Shown here: positions 23,863 to 29,359 of the stretch, one piece after another
Layout of the letters: each line of letters begins with the position of its first letter
How positions within the stretch are numbered: the stretch's first letter is position 1
Notes under the pieces: model-generated
Seen by the model: the letters and a program-made list of their open reading frames with translations, nothing else
What the model was told of the DNA's origin: nothing
The model's database searches: none
Sequence record: MZ234018.1
Strand: one strand, 5' to 3'
Origin: Escherichia phage vB_EcoM-101117BS1
DNA length: 64,000 nt
Position numbers and translations under genes: made by a program

Positions 23863-26559
23863 ATGAAAGAATTTTATATCTCTATTGAAACAGTCGGAAA
23901 TAATATTGTTGAACGTTATATTGATGAAAATGGAAAGGAACGTACTCGTGAAGTAGAATATCTTCCAACTATGTTTAGGCATTGTAAGGAAGAGTCAAAG
24001 TACAAAGACATCTATGGTAAAAACTGCGCTCCTCAAAAATTTCCATCAATGAAAGATGCTCGAGATTGGATGAAACGAATGGAAGACATCGGTCTCGAAG
24101 CTCTCGGTATGAACGATTTTAAACTCGCTTATATCAGTGATACATACGGTTCAGAAATTGTTTATGACCGAAAATTTGTTCGTGTAGCTAACTGTGACAT
24201 TGAGGTTACTGGTGATAAATTTCCTGACCCAATGAAAGCTGAATATGAAATTGATGCTATCACTCATTACGATTCAATTGATGATCGTTTTTATGTTTTC
24301 GACCTTTTGAATTCAATGTATGGTTCAGTATCAAAATGGGATGCAAAGTTAGCTGCTAAGCTTGACTGTGAAGGTGGTGATGAAGTTCCTCAAGAAATTC
24401 TTGACCGAGTAATTTATATGCCATTCGATAATGAGCGTGATATGCTCATGGAATATATCAATCTCTGGGAACAGAAACGACCTGCTATTTTTACTGGTTG
24501 GAATATTGAGGGATTTGACGTTCCGTATATCATGAATCGCGTTAAAATGGTTCTCGGTGAACGTAGTATGAAACGCTTCTCTCCAATCGGTCGAGTAAAA
24601 TCTAAACTAATTCAAAATATGTACGGCAGCAAAGAAATTTATTCTATTGATGGTGTATCTATTCTTGATTATTTAGATTTGTACAAGAAATTTGCTTTTA
24701 CTAATTTGCCGTCATTCTCTTTGGAATCAGTTGCTCAACATGAAACCAAAAAAGGTAAATTACCATACGACGGTCCTATTAATAAACTTCGTGAGACTAA
24801 TCATCAACGATACATTAGTTATAACATCATTGACGTAGAATCAGTTCAAGCAATTGATAAAATTCGCGGGTTTATCGATCTAGTTTTAAGTATGTCTTAT
24901 TACGCTAAAATGCCTTTTTCTGGTGTAATGAGTCCTATTAAAACTTGGGATGCTATTATTTTTAACTCATTGAAAGGTGAACACAAGGTTATTCCTCAAC
25001 AAGGTTCGCACGTTAAACAAAGTTTTCCGGGTGCATTTGTATTTGAACCTAAACCAATTGCTCGTCGATATATTATGAGTTTTGACTTGACGTCTCTGTA
25101 TCCGAGCATTATTCGTCAGGTTAACATTAGTCCTGAGACTATTCGTGGTCAGTTTAAAGTTCATCCAATTCATGAATATATCGCAGGAACAGCTCCTAAA
25201 CCGAGTGATGAATATTCTTGTTCTCCGAATGGATGGATGTATGATAAGCATCAAGAAGGTATCATTCCAAAGGAAATCGCTAAAGTATTTTTCCAGCGTA
25301 AAGATTGGAAAAAGAAAATGTTCGCTGAAGAAATGAATGCCGAAGCTATTAAAAAGATTATTATGAAAGGCGTAGGGTCTTGTTCAACTAAACCTGAAGT
25401 TGAACGATATGTTAAGTTCAGTGATGATTTCTTAAATGAACTATCGAATTATACTGAATCTGTTCTCAATAGTTTGATTGAAGAATGTGAAAAAGCGGCT
25501 ACACTTGCTAATACAAATCAGCTGAACCGTAAAATTCTTATTAACAGCCTTTACGGTGCTCTTGGTAATATTCATTTCCGTTACTATGATTTGCGAAATG
25601 CTACTGCTATCACAATTTTCGGCCAAGTTGGTATTCAGTGGATTGCTCGTAAAATTAATGAATATCTGAATAAAGTATGCGGAACTAATGGCGAAGATTT
25701 CATTGCAGCAGGTGATACTGATTCGGTATATGTTTGTGTAGATAAAGTTATTGAAAAAGTTGGTCTTGACCGATTCAAAGAGCAGAACGATTTAGTTGAA
25801 TTCATGAATCAGTTCGGTAAGAAAAAGATGGAACCTATGATTGATGTTGCATATCGTGAGTTATGTGATTATATGAATAACCGCGAGCATCTGATGCATA
25901 TGGACCGTGAAGCTATTTCTTGCCCTCCACTTGGTTCAAAGGGCGTTGGTGGATTTTGGAAAGCGAAAAAGCGTTATGCTCTGAACGTATATGATATGGA
26001 AGATAAGCGATTTGCTGAACCGCATCTAAAAATCATGGGTATGGAAACTCAGCAGAGTTCAACGCCTAAAGCGGTCCAAGAAGCTCTCGAAGAAAGTATT
26101 CGTCGTATTCTTCAGGAAGGTGAAGAGTCTGTCCAAGAATATTACAAGAACTTCGAGAAAGAATATCGTCAACTTGACTATAAAGTTATTGCTGAAGTAA
26201 AAACTGCGAACGATATAGCGAAATATGATGATAAAGGTTGGCCAGGATTTAAATGTCCGTTCCATATTCGTGGTGTGCTAACTTATCGTCGAGCTGTTAG
26301 CGGTTTAGGTGTAGCTCCAATTTTGGATGGAAATAAAGTAATGGTTCTTCCATTGCGTGAAGGAAATCCATTTGGTGACAAGTGCATTGCTTGGCCATCA
26401 GGTACAGAACTTCCAAAAGAAATTCGTTCTGACGTACTGTCTTGGATTGACTACTCAACTTTGTTCCAAAAATCGTTTGTTAAACCGCTTGCGGGCATGT
26501 GTGAATCGGCTGGTATGGACTATGAAGAAAAAGCTTCGTTAGACTTCCTGTTTGGCTGA
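23863..26559 (+). CDS. 43: DNA polymerase gp43 (family B)
   Basis: 898 aa; exo and pol motifs (DIE, YGDTDS); near-identical to T4 gp43 as recalled. Confidence 0.97.
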   Translation: MKEFYISIETVGNNIVERYIDENGKERTREVEYLPTMFRHCKEESKYKDIYGKNCAPQKFPSMKDARDWMKRMEDIGLEALGMNDFKLAYISDTYGSEIVYDRKFVRVANCDIEVTGDKFPDPMKAEYEIDAITHYDSIDDRFYVFDLLNSMYGSVSKWDAKLAAKLDCEGGDEVPQEILDRVIYMPFDNERDMLMEYINLWEQKRPAIFTGWNIEGFDVPYIMNRVKMVLGERSMKRFSPIGRVKSKLIQNMYGSKEIYSIDGVSILDYLDLYKKFAFTNLPSFSLESVAQHETKKGKLPYDGPINKLRETNHQRYISYNIIDVESVQAIDKIRGFIDLVLSMSYYAKMPFSGVMSPIKTWDAIIFNSLKGEHKVIPQQGSHVKQSFPGAFVFEPKPIARRYIMSFDLTSLYPSIIRQVNISPETIRGQFKVHPIHEYIAGTAPKPSDEYSCSPNGWMYDKHQEGIIPKEIAKVFFQRKDWKKKMFAEEMNAEAIKKIIMKGVGSCSTKPEVERYVKFSDDFLNELSNYTESVLNSLIEECEKAATLANTNQLNRKILINSLYGALGNIHFRYYDLRNATAITIFGQVGIQWIARKINEYLNKVCGTNGEDFIAAGDTDSVYVCVDKVIEKVGLDRFKEQNDLVEFMNQFGKKKMEPMIDVAYRELCDYMNNREHLMHMDREAISCPPLGSKGVGGFWKAKKRYALNVYDMEDKRFAEPHLKIMGMETQQSSTPKAVQEALEESIRRILQEGEESVQEYYKNFEKEYRQLDYKVIAEVKTANDIAKYDDKGWPGFKCPFHIRGVLTYRRAVSGLGVAPILDGNKVMVLPLREGNPFGDKCIAWPSGTELPKEIRSDVLSWIDYSTLFQKSFVKPLAGMCESAGMDYEEKASLDFLFG

Positions 26560-26572
26560 TAGAATAAATCTA

Positions 26573-26593
26573 GGGACCTCCGGGTCCCTTTTT
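26573..26593 (+). terminator. rho-independent terminator after gene 43
   Basis: gggacctccgggtccc hairpin followed by ttttt. Confidence 0.6.
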
Positions 26594-26675
26594 CATACAA
26601 GTAATATAAATCTATACTTATGAAAAACAGATGATTCTGGACATTTAGAATTCCCTAAAAATTTTTCACAAAACT

Positions 26676-26705
26676 GTTTACAAGACTGTTCTTCCATGGT
26701 ACTAT
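26676..26705 (+). promoter_or_regulatory. T4-type early promoter
   Basis: GTTTAC 26676-26681, 18-bp spacer, TGGTACTAT; shares a conserved leader with the promoters at 53899 and 57885. Confidence 0.55.
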
Positions 26706-26739
26706 ACAACTATCAACTAATACGGATTTGGAGAATAAA

Positions 26740-26976
26740 ATGAAAATTGTTTATGGTTGCTTAGCAGTGTGTTTAGTTGCATTAGCAACTGTTCCATTTA
26801 TTGATATTGAAAATGATACTCAGAATGTGATTGAATCTAATACTGTTATTCACATGAATGGTAAAGTATCAACAAAAATTGATGATAATCTTCATATGAA
26901 TACTAATGGAACGCTAGGTGTTCAATTAGGTAATACCTGTGTAAGCACTACTGGAGTAATTACTACTTGCATTTGA
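26740..26976 (+). CDS. small secreted protein (signal peptide)
   Basis: 78 aa from ATG 26740; N-terminal hydrophobic signal-like segment. Confidence 0.45.
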   Translation: MKIVYGCLAVCLVALATVPFIDIENDTQNVIESNTVIHMNGKVSTKIDDNLHMNTNGTLGVQLGNTCVSTTGVITTCI

Positions 26977-26986
26977 GGAAATTATT

Positions 26987-27367
26987 ATGAAAATCGCTAT
27001 TTTGGTTATTGCATTAGGTCTTACTGGTTGTGTAGCTCAAGGACCGGTAGTAAATCAGTCTGATGCAGGAAAAATTGTAAACTGTTCAAGCAAATTTTAT
27101 AATCCTAATGTCAAGTGTTATAAAGAAGCTCCAAAGCAAACAGTCGAACAAATGCAGGCGAATTTTGACGAAGCTATTCGTCCAGATGAATCTGCTCAAG
27201 CATATCGTAATTCGGATGTAATTACACGCGAAGAAAAAATTGAAAACTACTGCGCTGAAATTTGGGCTAATTGGGCTAATAATTACCAATGGCGTACTGG
27301 TAAAAATGCTCCGATGGAGTATGTAGTGAATTCTTATAATTCATGCGTAAAAAATTTGACTAAGTGA
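26987..27367 (+). CDS. putative lipoprotein
   Basis: 126 aa; lipobox-like LTGC after N-terminal signal segment. Confidence 0.5.
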   Translation: MKIAILVIALGLTGCVAQGPVVNQSDAGKIVNCSSKFYNPNVKCYKEAPKQTVEQMQANFDEAIRPDESAQAYRNSDVITREEKIENYCAEIWANWANNYQWRTGKNAPMEYVVNSYNSCVKNLTK

Positions 27368-27374
27368 GGAAAAG

Positions 27375-27626
27375 ATGGAAACTTTAGTAGCAGGTTCAAT
27401 TTTTATGGTTTTAGTTTCAGGTGTGTTGGCTATTATTATATACATGCTTCCATGGTTTATCGCCTTGATGCGTGGGTCAAAATCGACAGTAGGAATCTTT
27501 TTCACATCTTTACTGTTTAATTGGTCAATTATTGGTTGGTTTATTACATTTATTTGGTCAATTGCGGGTGAAACTAAAAAGTCTGCACAACCAAATCAGG
27601 TAATTATCATCAGAGAGAAGGAATGA
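27375..27626 (+). CDS. imm: immunity to superinfection membrane protein Imm
   Basis: 83 aa with two TM segments; matches T4 Imm. Confidence 0.8.
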   Translation: METLVAGSIFMVLVSGVLAIIIYMLPWFIALMRGSKSTVGIFFTSLLFNWSIIGWFITFIWSIAGETKKSAQPNQVIIIREKE

Positions 27627-27772
27627 AAAGCAAAATTATAACAGTGTTGCTTTTAATCTTGATGGTTATAATAAGTATATACTATAGCGTAACAGTTCCT
27701 GCTATGATTCCAACTATTATTTTAGGTTGGGGTTTATTACTGTTACAAGTTAAATATGAATGTATCAATTGA
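27623..27772 (+). CDS. small membrane protein
   Basis: 49-aa hydrophobic ORF overlapping imm stop. Confidence 0.35.
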   Translation: MKSKIITVLLLILMVIISIYYSVTVPAMIPTIILGWGLLLLQVKYECIN

Positions 27773-27779
27773 GGTTTAA

Positions 27780-28520
27780 ATGATTAGTGACTCTATGACA
27801 GTTGAAGAAATCCGTCTTCATTTGGGGCTTGCATTAAAAGAAAAAGATTTCGTAGTTGATAAAACTGGTGTTAAAACTATTGAAATTATTGGCGCATCAT
27901 TTGTAGCAGATGAACCGTTTATTTTTGGCGCTCTTAATGATGAATACATTCAGCGTGAACTTGAATGGTATAAATCTAAGAGCTTGTTTGTTAAAGATAT
28001 TCCAGGTGAAACACCGAAGATTTGGCAACAAGTAGCATCTTCTAAAGGTGAAATTAACTCGAATTATGGTTGGGCTATCTGGTCAGAAGATAACTATGCT
28101 CAATATGATATGTGTTTAGCTGAACTTGGTCAAAATCCTGATTCTCGACGTGGTATCATGATTTATACTCGTCCATCCATGCAATTTGACTACAATAAAG
28201 ATGGCATGTCAGATTTCATGTGTACGAATACCGTACAGTATCTGATTCGTGACAAGAAAATCAATGCGGTTGTTAACATGCGCTCAAATGACGTGGTCTT
28301 CGGATTCCGTAATGATTATGCATGGCAAAAATACGTATTAGATAAATTAGTATCTGATTTGAATGCAGGCGATTCAACTCGTCAGTATAAAGCAGGTTCT
28401 ATTATATGGAATGTTGGAAGTCTTCATGTATATTCTCGTCATTTTTACTTGGTTGATCATTGGTGGAATACTGGCGAAACTCATATTGTGAAAAAAGATT
28501 ATAACGGTGAGTGGAAATGA
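27780..28520 (+). CDS. 42: dCMP hydroxymethylase gp42
   Basis: 246 aa; thymidylate-synthase-like; matches T4 gp42. Confidence 0.9.
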   Translation: MISDSMTVEEIRLHLGLALKEKDFVVDKTGVKTIEIIGASFVADEPFIFGALNDEYIQRELEWYKSKSLFVKDIPGETPKIWQQVASSKGEINSNYGWAIWSEDNYAQYDMCLAELGQNPDSRRGIMIYTRPSMQFDYNKDGMSDFMCTNTVQYLIRDKKINAVVNMRSNDVVFGFRNDYAWQKYVLDKLVSDLNAGDSTRQYKAGSIIWNVGSLHVYSRHFYLVDHWWNTGETHIVKKDYNGEWK

Positions 28521-29359
28521 TTCAATTCGTAATTCCAAGTTATCAGCGTGTTGGGGCAGTTTCTGCCCTTGATATGTTTCCGACTGATTATGAACCCCAT
28601 ATTGTAGTGCGTGAACACGAAGAAAAAGCTTATTATGATGCCTATGGGTCTAGAGCTAAAATTGTAACTATTCCTGATGATGTAAATGGAATTGCCGGTA
28701 CTCGTAAAGCAATTACTGATATGTATGCAGGTCAACGAATCTGGATGATTGACGATGATACTACTATTCGTATGAGTTCAATGCGAAAAAGAGATGATCG
28801 TCGTTGTGTAGATAAAGTCAATCAATTGACTCGTGAACAGTTCTATGAATTGATTCAATATGTTGAGGATGCCATGGATTGCGGGTATTATCACGGTCAT
28901 GCTCGTCTACCTATTTTTAAAATTACTTCATCTTGGGGTAATTATCGTGAAAATTCATATGGATTCACGAATACATGGTATGACCTTGGAAAACTTACTA
29001 CAGAACAAATTGGGTATGGAAAAATTGATTTATGCGAAGATATGTATGCATTTCTCAATTTAATTAATCAAGGTTATCCGCATTTGGCCTTGTTCAAATA
29101 TCTAGTTGTATCTGGAAAAGCACAAGCTCCTGGCGGGTGCAGTTCAATTCGTAGTAATTCTAAACATAATAGAGCGCTTGAGCAAATCAATAGAGAGTTT
29201 CCAGAACAAGCTCGTTGGAAAACTTCTAATATTGAAAAACGAAAATCGTTGGGTGAAGAAGACGAGCCATTAAAGGTTCTTCGCATGTGTGTTTCGCGTA
29301 AAGAAAAATCAGAAGCATTTCATAAGTTTAATGCTATTCATCCGATAGCAGTTGATTAA
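28517..29359 (+). CDS. DNA glucosyltransferase (beta-alpha-gt-like, T2/T6 type rather than T4 b-gt)
   Basis: 280 aa in the b-gt position; sequence unlike T4 351-aa beta-gt as recalled. Confidence 0.55.
   Translation: MIQFVIPSYQRVGAVSALDMFPTDYEPHIVVREHEEKAYYDAYGSRAKIVTIPDDVNGIAGTRKAITDMYAGQRIWMIDDDTTIRMSSMRKRDDRRCVDKVNQLTREQFYELIQYVEDAMDCGYYHGHARLPIFKITSSWGNYRENSYGFTNTWYDLGKLTTEQIGYGKIDLCEDMYAFLNLINQGYPHLALFKYLVVSGKAQAPGGCSSIRSNSKHNRALEQINREFPEQARWKTSNIEKRKSLGEEDEPLKVLRMCVSRKEKSEAFHKFNAIHPIAVD

What the first reader, a model, noticed from the sequence alone, without database searches (positions are those of the whole stretch)
26740..27772. Secreted and lipoprotein ORFs clustered with imm
Immediately upstream of Imm are a 78-aa signal-peptide protein and a 126-aa putative lipoprotein; a 49-aa membrane peptide follows imm. 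All are expressed from an early promoter after the gene 43 terminator. Envelope-targeted early proteins next to Imm are plausible additional superinfection-exclusion or envelope-defence inhibitors.
Basis: inference. Interest (0 to 1): 0.4.

Follow-up and report, generated by a model that had tools for sequence, protein, structure and literature searches.

The report
Envelope-protein genes flanking T-even imm
Next to the T4-type superinfection-immunity gene sit three small, real, already-catalogued genes for envelope-targeted proteins of unknown function. Only the lipoprotein Imm.1 stays linked to imm across related phages.

Summary
The window is a Tequatrovirus (T4-like phage). After the gene 43 terminator and a T4-type early promoter come four tightly packed genes:
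- orf78, 26740-26976, a probable secreted protein.
- imm.1, 26987-27367, a lipoprotein with lipobox LTGC, in DUF5481 and phrog_1754, 97.6% identical to T4 Imm.1.
- imm, 27375-27626.
- orf49, 27623-27772, a hydrophobic (probably two-helix) membrane peptide in phrog_3610.

All are known database entries with no known function.

**Imm.1.** Comparative genomics supports a link to Imm. A phrog_1754 lipoprotein gene lies beside imm in seven Tevenvirinae genera, even after the pair moved next to spackle in Mosigvirus or changed gene order. However, Karamvirus lacks imm at that locus, and a Kanagawavirus lacks it across the 50 kb examined. T4 imm.1 knockdown has no fitness cost.

**orf78.** It is a fast-evolving accessory gene, deleted in T4 and located elsewhere in Dhakavirus.

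**orf49.** It stays in the gene 43-to-42 slot rather than with imm, and is left unannotated in the T4 reference.

No fold or family match suggests a mechanism. A role in superinfection exclusion is plausible for Imm.1 only, and is untested.

The parts
26572..26597 (+). Intrinsic terminator ending the gene 43 transcript (7-bp GC-rich stem, 4-nt loop, T-run)
   Evidence: 3 terminator-like sites found against 0.7 expected. A putative terminator is annotated just after gene 43 in T4 record M37159. The sequence is nearly identical in T4.
26676..26705 (+). T4-type early promoter (GTTTAC, 18-nt spacer, TGgTACTAT extended -10). The predicted transcription start is near 26712.
   Evidence: The motif GTTTAC-N16-18-TAYWAT occurs 15 times, all on the + strand, against 0.27 expected. 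The site is conserved in T4. No transcript mapping was done.
26740..26976 (+). orf78 (phrog_4189): probable Sec-exported protein. The mature part would be about 61 residues, a small beta domain with a C-terminal Cys67-Cys77 pair. It is an accessory gene, absent from T4.
   Evidence: AF2 pLDDT is 77-90 for residues 31-78, with six short strands. dN/dS is 0.14-0.72. The gene is precisely deleted in T4. It lies elsewhere in Dhakavirus.
26987..27367 (+). imm.1: lipoprotein precursor with lipobox LTGC, lipidated Cys15 and no Asp at +2. It belongs to Pfam DUF5481 (PF17578) and phrog_1754, and is the orthologue of T4 Imm.1.
   Evidence: 235 bits against a cut-off of 27. (phrog_1754, E = 9e-44). (97.6% identical to T4).. 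dN is 0-0.007.
27375..27626 (+). imm: the known T4 superinfection-immunity inner-membrane protein, 83 aa
   Evidence: PF14373, 58.2 bits. (phrog_1039)..
27623..27772 (+). orf49 (phrog_3610, 'gp42.1' of RB51): hydrophobic membrane peptide, probably a two-helix hairpin, with conserved P-x-MIPT and Q-x-K-Y/F-x-C-F/I-N motifs. Its start overlaps the imm stop (ATGA), and its stop lies inside the Shine-Dalgarno sequence of gene 42.
   Evidence: It is intact but unannotated in T4.
27780..28520 (+). Gene 42 (dCMP hydroxymethylase): the downstream end of the block and the likely recipient of translational coupling from orf49
   Evidence: The sequence around 27765-27782 is shown.

Best explanation
This is the conserved early-gene block that T-even phages carry between the DNA polymerase gene (43) and the dCMP hydroxymethylase gene (42). 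One early promoter drives four small genes whose products all go to the cell envelope.

**Imm** is the known inner-membrane protein that blocks DNA entry from superinfecting phage.

**Imm.1** is made as a lipoprotein precursor. It is cut and lipidated at Cys15. Because it has no Asp at +2, it is most likely sent to the inner face of the outer membrane, where its roughly 110-residue disulfide-stabilised helical domain faces the periplasm. I infer that Imm.1 works in the same process as Imm, protecting the infected cell envelope against incoming T-even virions. It would act as a periplasmic or outer-membrane adjunct, not as a required subunit.

**orf49** is a small hydrophobic (probably two-helix) inner-membrane peptide. 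It is translationally coupled to imm upstream and to gene 42 downstream. Its role is unknown, and it belongs to the 43-to-42 slot rather than to imm.

**orf78** is a dispensable, fast-evolving secreted accessory protein that happens to be inserted here.

**Shown here:** gene anatomy, family membership, export signals by sequence rules, the promoter and terminator motifs, and synteny.

**Inferred:** localisation, co-transcription, and every functional statement.
For: **Anatomy and signals:**

**One lipoprotein family.** Imm.1 and the lipoproteins of other genera all match phrog_1754 over their full length, with E from 1e-44 to 1e-53. They share K2, the lipobox Gly, Y38 and two Cys.

**Linkage to imm.**
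- All four divergent DUF5481 lineages (32-45% identical to the window's Imm.1) lie 7-61 nt upstream of a PF14373 gene. They do so in three different upstream contexts.
- In Mosigvirus the pair moved together, to lie between dmd and spackle.
- In Dhakavirus and Gaprivervirus the order is imm, orf49, lipoprotein.
- In Jiaodavirus, Moonvirus and Gelderlandvirus the order is lipoprotein then imm.
- Among 73 Imm-family loci from IMG/VR, all 21 T4-like loci have an adjacent lipobox ORF. Only 4 of the other 52 do, and the background is 4 of 670 ORFs.
- The reverse search returned only contigs that also carry imm.

**Selection.** Purifying selection is strong on imm.1 and imm, with dN of 0-0.01 against dS of 0.04-0.19.

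**Periplasmic location.** One family member replaces the lipobox with an ordinary signal peptide (P0004). This suggests the periplasmic location is what is conserved.
Against: **The lipoprotein exists without imm.** Karamvirus CC31 has gene 43, lipoprotein, gene 42 with no imm at the locus. Kanagawavirus IME523 has no Imm-family ORF in the 50 kb that include the spackle region. At least 27 Enterobacter-phage records carry the lipoprotein, whereas Enterobacter falls below the 15-record tenth place in both Imm searches, so it has at most 15 records.

**No fitness cost in T4.** A genome-wide CRISPRi-ART screen scored imm.1 'Not Fit' (PMC11879866 supplement).

**Imm is sufficient alone.** From my own knowledge (Lu and Henning 1989), plasmid-borne imm by itself excludes T4.

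**No mechanistic lead.** The Imm.1 model is poor (mean pLDDT 64.7, with only the C-terminal helical hairpin confident). Foldseek against the PDB and a profile search of PDB sequences found nothing.

**Adjacency may be inheritance.** The loci are related by descent, so they are not independent observations.
Confidence: 0.4

Rival explanations
1. Imm.1 acts independently of Imm. It is a periplasm-facing outer-membrane lipoprotein with its own target, such as a host envelope protein, an envelope-level defence, or virion parts of competing phages. It lies next to imm only because both are old residents of the early slot between genes 43 and 42.
For: The lipoprotein is kept where imm is missing (counts). 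Gene order relative to imm is not fixed. Imm-family genes outside T4-like phages rarely have a lipoprotein neighbour, 4 of 52. imm.1 knockdown is neutral in the laboratory.
Against: When imm moved in Mosigvirus, imm.1 moved with it and orf49 did not. Pairing survives a change of order and three different upstream contexts.
Confidence: 0.35
2. Imm.1 is a receptor-masking lipoprotein of the T5 Llp or Cor type. It would bind the phage's outer-membrane receptor to stop superinfection and protect released progeny.
For: It is an early-expressed lipoprotein predicted to go to the outer membrane. The Llp precedent is described in PMC9586334 (listed).
Against: Foldseek against the PDB found no similarity to any solved structure. 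Imm.1 is 96-100% identical across about 500 Tequatrovirus records isolated on Escherichia, Shigella, Yersinia, Salmonella and Citrobacter. From my own knowledge, T-even phages use different receptors (OmpC, Tsx, FadL/OmpF), so a receptor-specific binder should vary with them.
Confidence: 0.08
3. orf49 is kept mainly as a translational coupling device that carries ribosomes from the upstream gene into gene 42 or the DNA-modification genes. It would not be an envelope effector.
For: Its start overlaps the stop of whatever gene is upstream, imm here and an arabinose-5-phosphate isomerase in other genera. Its stop lies inside the gene 42 Shine-Dalgarno sequence. The non-essential imm scored 'Fit' in the knockdown screen, as expected if blocking imm translation is polar on gene 42.
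Against: The peptide sequence is conserved across five genera (P-x-MIPT, Q-x-K-Y/F-x-C-F/I-N), with dN/dS about 0.35 at dS 0.7. A pure coupler would not need this. The gene is absent in some lineages where imm abuts gene 42 directly (L012).
Confidence: 0.15
4. orf78 and orf49 are chance ORFs or annotation artefacts, not genes.
For: Both are short. orf49 is not annotated in the T4 reference. orf78 is missing from T4.
Against: tblastn matches to orf78 were found in 325 phage records, 320 of them covering at least 80% of it, and to orf49 in 745 records in several genera. Both have ribosome-binding sites, PHROG families and dN/dS below 1. orf78 has a confidently predicted beta domain.
Confidence: 0.03

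Closest known systems
[quoted passage not shown]
   Same: It is 97.6% identical in protein sequence, has the same position directly upstream of imm, and has the same promoter and terminator context.
   Different: In the window orf78 is inserted between the promoter and imm.1. T4 has lost it, and T4 imm.1 uses what is the orf78 ribosome-binding site here. No function is known for either copy.
T4 Imm (superinfection immunity protein, PF14373)
   Same: The window's imm is the orthologue. Imm.1-family genes are its usual neighbour in Tevenvirinae.
   Different: Imm is an integral inner-membrane protein. Imm.1 is an exported lipoprotein, and the two share no sequence similarity. The Imm domain is widespread in many phage groups that lack the lipoprotein.
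T4 Spackle (Sp), the periplasmic inhibitor of the gp5 tail lysozyme (PMC7677548)
   Same: It is an early, exported, small periplasmic protein with disulfides that acts in superinfection exclusion. In Mosigvirus the sp gene directly follows imm.1-imm.
   Different: Only the signal peptides align (hhalign probability 41% over 18 residues). No fold match to solved structures was found.
T5 Llp and other phage receptor-blocking lipoproteins (PMC9586334)
   Same: It is an early phage lipoprotein predicted to sit in the outer membrane.
   Different: No sequence or fold similarity was found. Imm.1 is nearly invariant across about 500 Tequatrovirus records from varied hosts. From my own knowledge these phages use different receptors, which argues against receptor-specific binding.
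RB51 'gp42.1' / phrog_3610 small membrane protein
   Same: orf49 is 95.9% identical and in the same position.
   Different: Nothing differs. It is simply not annotated in the T4 reference, and its function is unknown.

Membership tests
Bacterial lipoprotein precursor (signal peptidase II substrate): Imm.1 | Positively charged n-region, an uncharged hydrophobic region, and a lipobox [LVI][ASTVI][GAS]C with the Cys roughly between positions 15 and 35 | tested here: met
   MKIAILVIALGLTGC. The PROSITE-style rule and the classic lipobox both match, with Cys15. The lipobox Gly is invariant and the Cys is present in 11 of 12 family members. The Pfam LPAM_1 match is weak only (E = 0.44). SignalP and LipoP were not available.
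Bacterial lipoprotein precursor (signal peptidase II substrate): Imm.1 | Actual lipid modification, and sorting by the residue at +2 | not testable with these tools
   The +2 residue is Val here, and Gly, Ala, Gln or Ser in relatives. It is never Asp. By the E. coli +2 rule (my own knowledge) this predicts the outer membrane. Labelling and fractionation are needed.
Pfam DUF5481 (PF17578) / phrog_1754 | Profile match above the curated threshold over the full domain | tested here: met
   235.1 bits against a cut-off of 27, covering profile positions 1-103 of 103. phrog_1754 E = 9.2e-44.
Sec-type cleavable signal peptide: orf78 | An n-region with a positive charge, a hydrophobic core of about 7-15 residues, and small residues at -3 and -1 before the cleavage site | tested here: inconclusive
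   K2, the core IVYGCLAVCLV, then ALA followed by T. Relatives have LAA followed by V. The hydrophobic run continues to residue 21, so an uncleaved membrane anchor is not excluded. Seven-residue duplications within it are tolerated. No formal predictor was available.
Superinfection immunity protein Imm (PF14373) | Profile match above threshold, and a small protein with two transmembrane segments | tested here: met
   58.2 bits against 27.9. Hydrophobic windows cover both segments. The DNA is nearly identical to T4 imm. This applies to the imm gene only, not to its neighbours.
Receptor-blocking phage lipoproteins (T5 Llp, Cor) | Sequence or fold similarity to Llp or Cor | tested here: not met
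   Foldseek against the PDB gave no match at E <= 0.001. The profile search of PDB sequences found nothing significant. The Imm.1 model is of low confidence, so the fold test is weak.
Receptor-blocking phage lipoproteins (T5 Llp, Cor) | Binding to the phage's own outer-membrane receptor | not testable with these tools
   Near-invariance of Imm.1 across many Tequatroviruses argues indirectly against receptor specificity.
Spackle (gp5-lysozyme inhibitor) | Homology to Sp | tested here: not met
   hhalign aligns only the 18-residue signal peptide, with probability 41%.
Two-component spanin (outer-membrane lipoprotein plus inner-membrane partner) | A lipoprotein gene beside or within a gene for a type II inner-membrane protein with a long periplasmic coiled coil, located in a late lysis cassette | tested here: not met
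   The neighbour Imm is a two-segment membrane protein without a periplasmic domain. The block has an early-type promoter and lies among replication and nucleotide genes.

The most novel reading that the evidence does not exclude
The Imm.1-family lipoprotein is an unrecognised third component of T-even superinfection exclusion. Anchored in the outer membrane, it would meet the tip of an incoming tail (or Imm itself) in the periplasm. That could help explain how an 83-residue inner-membrane protein stops DNA ejection part-way. Phages that kept the lipoprotein but lost imm would then show that it has exclusion or envelope-protection activity of its own.
Probability: 0.2. Interest if true: 0.6.

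Novelty: already known. Interest (0 to 1): 0.3.

Why it matters
T4 superinfection exclusion is a textbook phenomenon, yet how Imm works is still unclear. About a third of T4 genes have no assigned function (PMC11879866 supplement). Imm.1 is a strongly conserved lipoprotein that follows imm through genome rearrangements in many T4-like genera. That gives a cheap, specific experiment: delete or express imm.1, with and without imm and sp. Separately, the T4 reference annotation misses a conserved 49-codon gene that couples imm to the essential gene 42. This matters when interpreting knockdown and deletion phenotypes of imm. If Imm.1 turns out to have no exclusion role, the block is just ordinary accessory early genes.

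Tried and rejected
- **Literature.** Searches for DUF5481 and imm.1 found no functional study. The one genome-comparison paper only lists Imm.1 as a T4-group marker. The Miller 2003 T4 genome review is not held.
- **Word-indexed protein search with Imm.1.** It returned only near-identical proteins. The exhaustive HMMER search of 1.84 billion representatives found only 6 clusters, so the DUF5481 branch is very narrow.
- **Imm.1 structure.** AF2 gave mean pLDDT 64.7. Foldseek against the PDB gave nothing at E <= 0.001, and the profile search of PDB sequences gave nothing.
- **orf78 structure.** AF2 gave a confident small beta domain, but Foldseek against the PDB found nothing. The weak resemblance to the adenovirus fibre shaft has probability 0.13, and I do not rely on it.
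- **Other libraries.** NCBIfam and PADLOC gave only noise. Rfam found no RNA family in 26300-28000.
- **Profile comparison of mature lipoproteins.** hhalign on the mature DUF5481-type sequences against the 146-176-aa lipoproteins of other genera gave only 59-70% probability. Homology was settled instead by full-length matches of all of them to phrog_1754.
- **Domain fusions.** Fusions of the Imm domain involve zinc ribbons and SHOCT, not lipoprotein domains.
- In one search the gene 43 3' end comparison for L014 and L016, and the T4 orf49 row, used wrong coordinates. I ignore them.
Full report
**What the window is.**
The region matches more than 500 phage records at 90-99% nucleotide identity. 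Nearly all listed hits are Tequatrovirus, the T4-like phages of Escherichia, Shigella and Yersinia. Gene order around the finding is:
- gene 43, DNA polymerase (23863-26559)
- the four small ORFs
- gene 42, dCMP hydroxymethylase (27780-28520)
- a T2/T6-type beta-glucosyl-HMC-alpha-glucosyltransferase (28511-29359)
- uvsX

**Checking the observation.**
Each has a Shine-Dalgarno-like motif, and they are packed with gaps of 10, 7, -4 and 7 nt.
- The 126-aa protein begins MKIAILVIALGLTGC. This satisfies both a PROSITE-style lipoprotein rule and the classic lipobox, with the lipidated Cys at position 15.
- The 78-aa protein has a Lys at position 2, an 11-residue hydrophobic core and an Ala-Leu-Ala motif before residue 17. 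This fits a short Sec signal peptide. I had no formal predictor, and the hydrophobic run is long enough that an uncleaved anchor is not excluded.
- The 49-aa protein is hydrophobic from residue 5 to 43, with a Pro-rich turn in the middle.
- A clean intrinsic terminator follows gene 43 at 26572-26589. A putative terminator is annotated just after gene 43 in an old T4 record.
- At 26676-26705 there is a T4-type early promoter. The motif GTTTAC-N16-18-TAYWAT occurs 15 times in the window, always on the + strand, against 0.27 expected by chance.
- Four consecutive genes with hydrophobic segments are modestly unlikely by chance (P about 0.016).

Co-transcription from the early promoter is a well-founded inference, not a measurement.

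**What the genes are.**
- The 126-aa ORF is T4 gene imm.1. It is 97.6% identical to the T4 protein. It matches Pfam DUF5481 at 235 bits and phrog_1754. The T4 reference calls it 'hypothetical predicted membrane protein'. The RefSeq name 'iduronate sulfatase' has no support.
- The 83-aa ORF is imm.
- The 49-aa ORF is phrog_3610, annotated as gp42.1 in RB51. It is intact in T4 but falls in an unannotated 153-nt gap of both T4 reference records.
- The 78-aa ORF is phrog_4189, a hypothetical protein with tblastn matches in 325 phage records.

**orf78 is an accessory gene, and T4 has lost it.**
Aligning the window with T4 shows a precise 240-250-nt difference. In T4 the sequence upstream of imm.1 (GGAGAATGAA-ATG) corresponds to the sequence upstream of orf78 in the window. 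Both orf78 and imm.1 begin ATGAAAAT. The simplest reading is a deletion in the T4 lineage between these short repeats, which leaves imm.1 on the orf78 ribosome-binding site.
- orf78 evolves much faster than its neighbours. Against loci L014 and L016, dN is 0.12 for orf78 and 0-0.003 for imm.1 and imm.
- Its dN/dS stays below 1, at 0.14-0.72.
- Its signal region tolerates 7-residue tandem duplications.
- In Dhakavirus the homologue lies in a different part of the genome, near the lysozyme, NUDIX and denV genes.
- AF2 predicts a confident small six-stranded beta domain for residues 31-78, ending in a conserved Cys pair. No solved structure resembles it.

Nothing ties orf78 to imm except its position in this lineage.

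**orf49 belongs to the slot, not to imm.**
Homologues with conserved P-x-MIPT and Q-x-K-Y/F-x-C-F/I-N motifs occur in Tequatrovirus, Mosigvirus, Dhakavirus, Kanagawavirus and Kagamiyamavirus. In Mosigvirus, Kanagawavirus and Kagamiyamavirus the gene follows an arabinose-5-phosphate isomerase-like gene downstream of gene 43 and precedes DNA-modification genes, away from imm. Its start overlaps the stop of whatever gene is upstream. In the window its stop codon lies inside the GAGG of the gene 42 ribosome-binding site. This suggests a coupling chain from imm through orf49 to gene 42. In a published CRISPRi-ART screen of T4, imm scored 'Fit' although the authors' literature table lists it as non-essential. 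Gene 42 scored strongly 'Fit' and imm.1 'Not Fit' (PMC11879866 supplement). Polarity through this chain would explain that pattern. This is my inference.

**Imm.1 is the one neighbour with real comparative support.**
- The DUF5481 branch is tiny, with six clusters among 1.84 billion representative proteins.
- Every divergent member (32-45% identical) lies 7-61 nt upstream of an Imm-family gene. The upstream contexts differ: gene 43, a Phage_FRD3 gene, and dmd in Mosigvirus.
- In Mosigvirus the imm.1-imm pair sits directly before spackle, the other known exclusion gene.
- Scanning IMG/VR with an Imm alignment gave 73 loci. All 21 T4-like loci have a lipobox ORF beside imm. Only 4 of the other 52 do, and the background is 4 of 670 ORFs.
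- These neighbouring lipoproteins are 146-176 aa in Moonvirus, Gelderlandvirus, Gaprivervirus, Dhakavirus and Jiaodavirus. On my own small alignments they looked only marginally related to Imm.1. However, all tested representatives match phrog_1754 over their full length, at E from 1e-45 to 1e-53.
- They share the lipobox, a Tyr, and two Cys placed in a C-terminal helical hairpin.
- Gene order can be lipoprotein then imm, or imm, orf49, then lipoprotein.
- A reverse scan with the lipoproteins returned only contigs that also carry imm.
- One member has an ordinary signal peptide instead of a lipobox, so the periplasmic location seems to be the conserved feature.
- No member has Asp at +2, which by the E. 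coli sorting rule (my own knowledge) predicts the outer membrane.

**Limits of that support.**
- Karamvirus CC31 has gene 43, lipoprotein, gene 42 with no imm at the locus.
- Kanagawavirus IME523 has the lipoprotein but no Imm-family ORF in the 50 kb that contain all the usual locations.
- At least 27 Enterobacter-phage records carry the lipoprotein. Enterobacter falls below the 15-record tenth place in the organism counts of both Imm searches, so it has at most 15 records.
- From my own knowledge, imm alone on a plasmid excludes T4 (Lu and Henning 1989).

So Imm.1 is not an obligate subunit of Imm. Shared ancestry of the slot explains part of the adjacency. No family, fold or defence-library match gives a mechanism.

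**Most likely mechanism.**
I commit, at about 0.4, to this reading. The block is an early envelope-remodelling cassette. Imm.1 is an outer-membrane, periplasm-facing lipoprotein that contributes to the same protective process as Imm and Spackle, as an adjunct. The main rival, at about 0.35, is that Imm.1 has an independent envelope target and is merely an old neighbour. A receptor-masking role like T5 Llp is unlikely, because Imm.1 is nearly invariant across hundreds of Tequatroviruses from varied hosts. A spanin role does not fit the early promoter or the partner's architecture.

**Novelty and verdict.**
Every gene here is already in the databases. The sequences are 96-100% identical to those of many deposited phages, and the functions are listed as unknown as recently as 2025. 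Its functional suggestion is reasonable for Imm.1, unsupported for orf78, and doubtful for orf49. What this analysis adds:
- the cross-genus linkage of the phrog_1754 lipoprotein with imm, and its exceptions
- the deletion origin of the T4 arrangement
- the unannotated, translationally coupled orf49 in T4

Interest is modest.

Noticed in passing
window 27623-27772; T4 NC_000866 26220-26372 (L003): The T4 reference records leave the imm-to-42 gap unannotated, although it holds an intact 49-codon ORF conserved in at least five genera. Its start overlaps the imm stop, and its stop lies inside the gene 42 Shine-Dalgarno sequence. Polarity through this chain could explain why the non-essential imm scored 'Fit' in a CRISPRi-ART screen.
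   Followed up: partly
window 26715-26995 compared with T4 (L003, reverse strand): T4 lacks orf78 through a precise 240-250-nt deletion, apparently between short ATGAAAAT repeats at the starts of orf78 and imm.1. As a result, T4 imm.1 sits on the orf78 ribosome-binding site.
   Followed up: yes
proteins P0010 and P0017 (orf78 homologues); window 26758-26790: Some phages carry 21-nt tandem duplications inside the orf78 signal-peptide region (LAVCLVA repeated). In P0010 this creates an LAAC lipobox-like motif, and a source names that protein 'Lipoprotein'.
   Followed up: no
NC_000866 imm.1 (L003 4637-5014) and RB18 and ECO4 records: RefSeq names Imm.1 'iduronate sulfatase'. The only Pfam match above threshold is DUF5481, so the name appears to be an annotation error that has spread.
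   Followed up: partly
window 1377, 26676 and 54415 (and 12 further sites): Fifteen T4-type early promoter motifs lie in the window, all on the + strand. Three of them share an identical 16-nt start, GTTTACAAGACTGTTC, and could act as short recombination repeats.
   Followed up: no
window 26593-26709, minus strand; L001 1534-1638: A 34-38-codon antisense ORF lying over the terminator-to-promoter spacer is annotated as a hypothetical protein in phage ADUt. It is probably a spurious gene call.
   Followed up: no
loci L041, L043, L044, L051, L053, L059, L060: Outside T4-like phages the Imm_superinfect domain is often fused to weak, sub-threshold zinc-ribbon-like matches or to a SHOCT domain. This suggests that family has a cytoplasmic partner or sensing function.
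   Followed up: no
window 28511-29359: The window carries the T2/T6-type beta-glucosyl-HMC-alpha-glucosyltransferase directly after gene 42. It has no beta-gt or segA as in T4, so the phage is T2/T6-like in its DNA glucosylation.
   Followed up: no
L005 3237-3530 (Mosigvirus spackle): The Mosigvirus Spackle signal peptide contains a lipobox-like AVSC. My lipobox rule flagged it, which may be a false positive or a real difference from T4 Sp.
   Followed up: no
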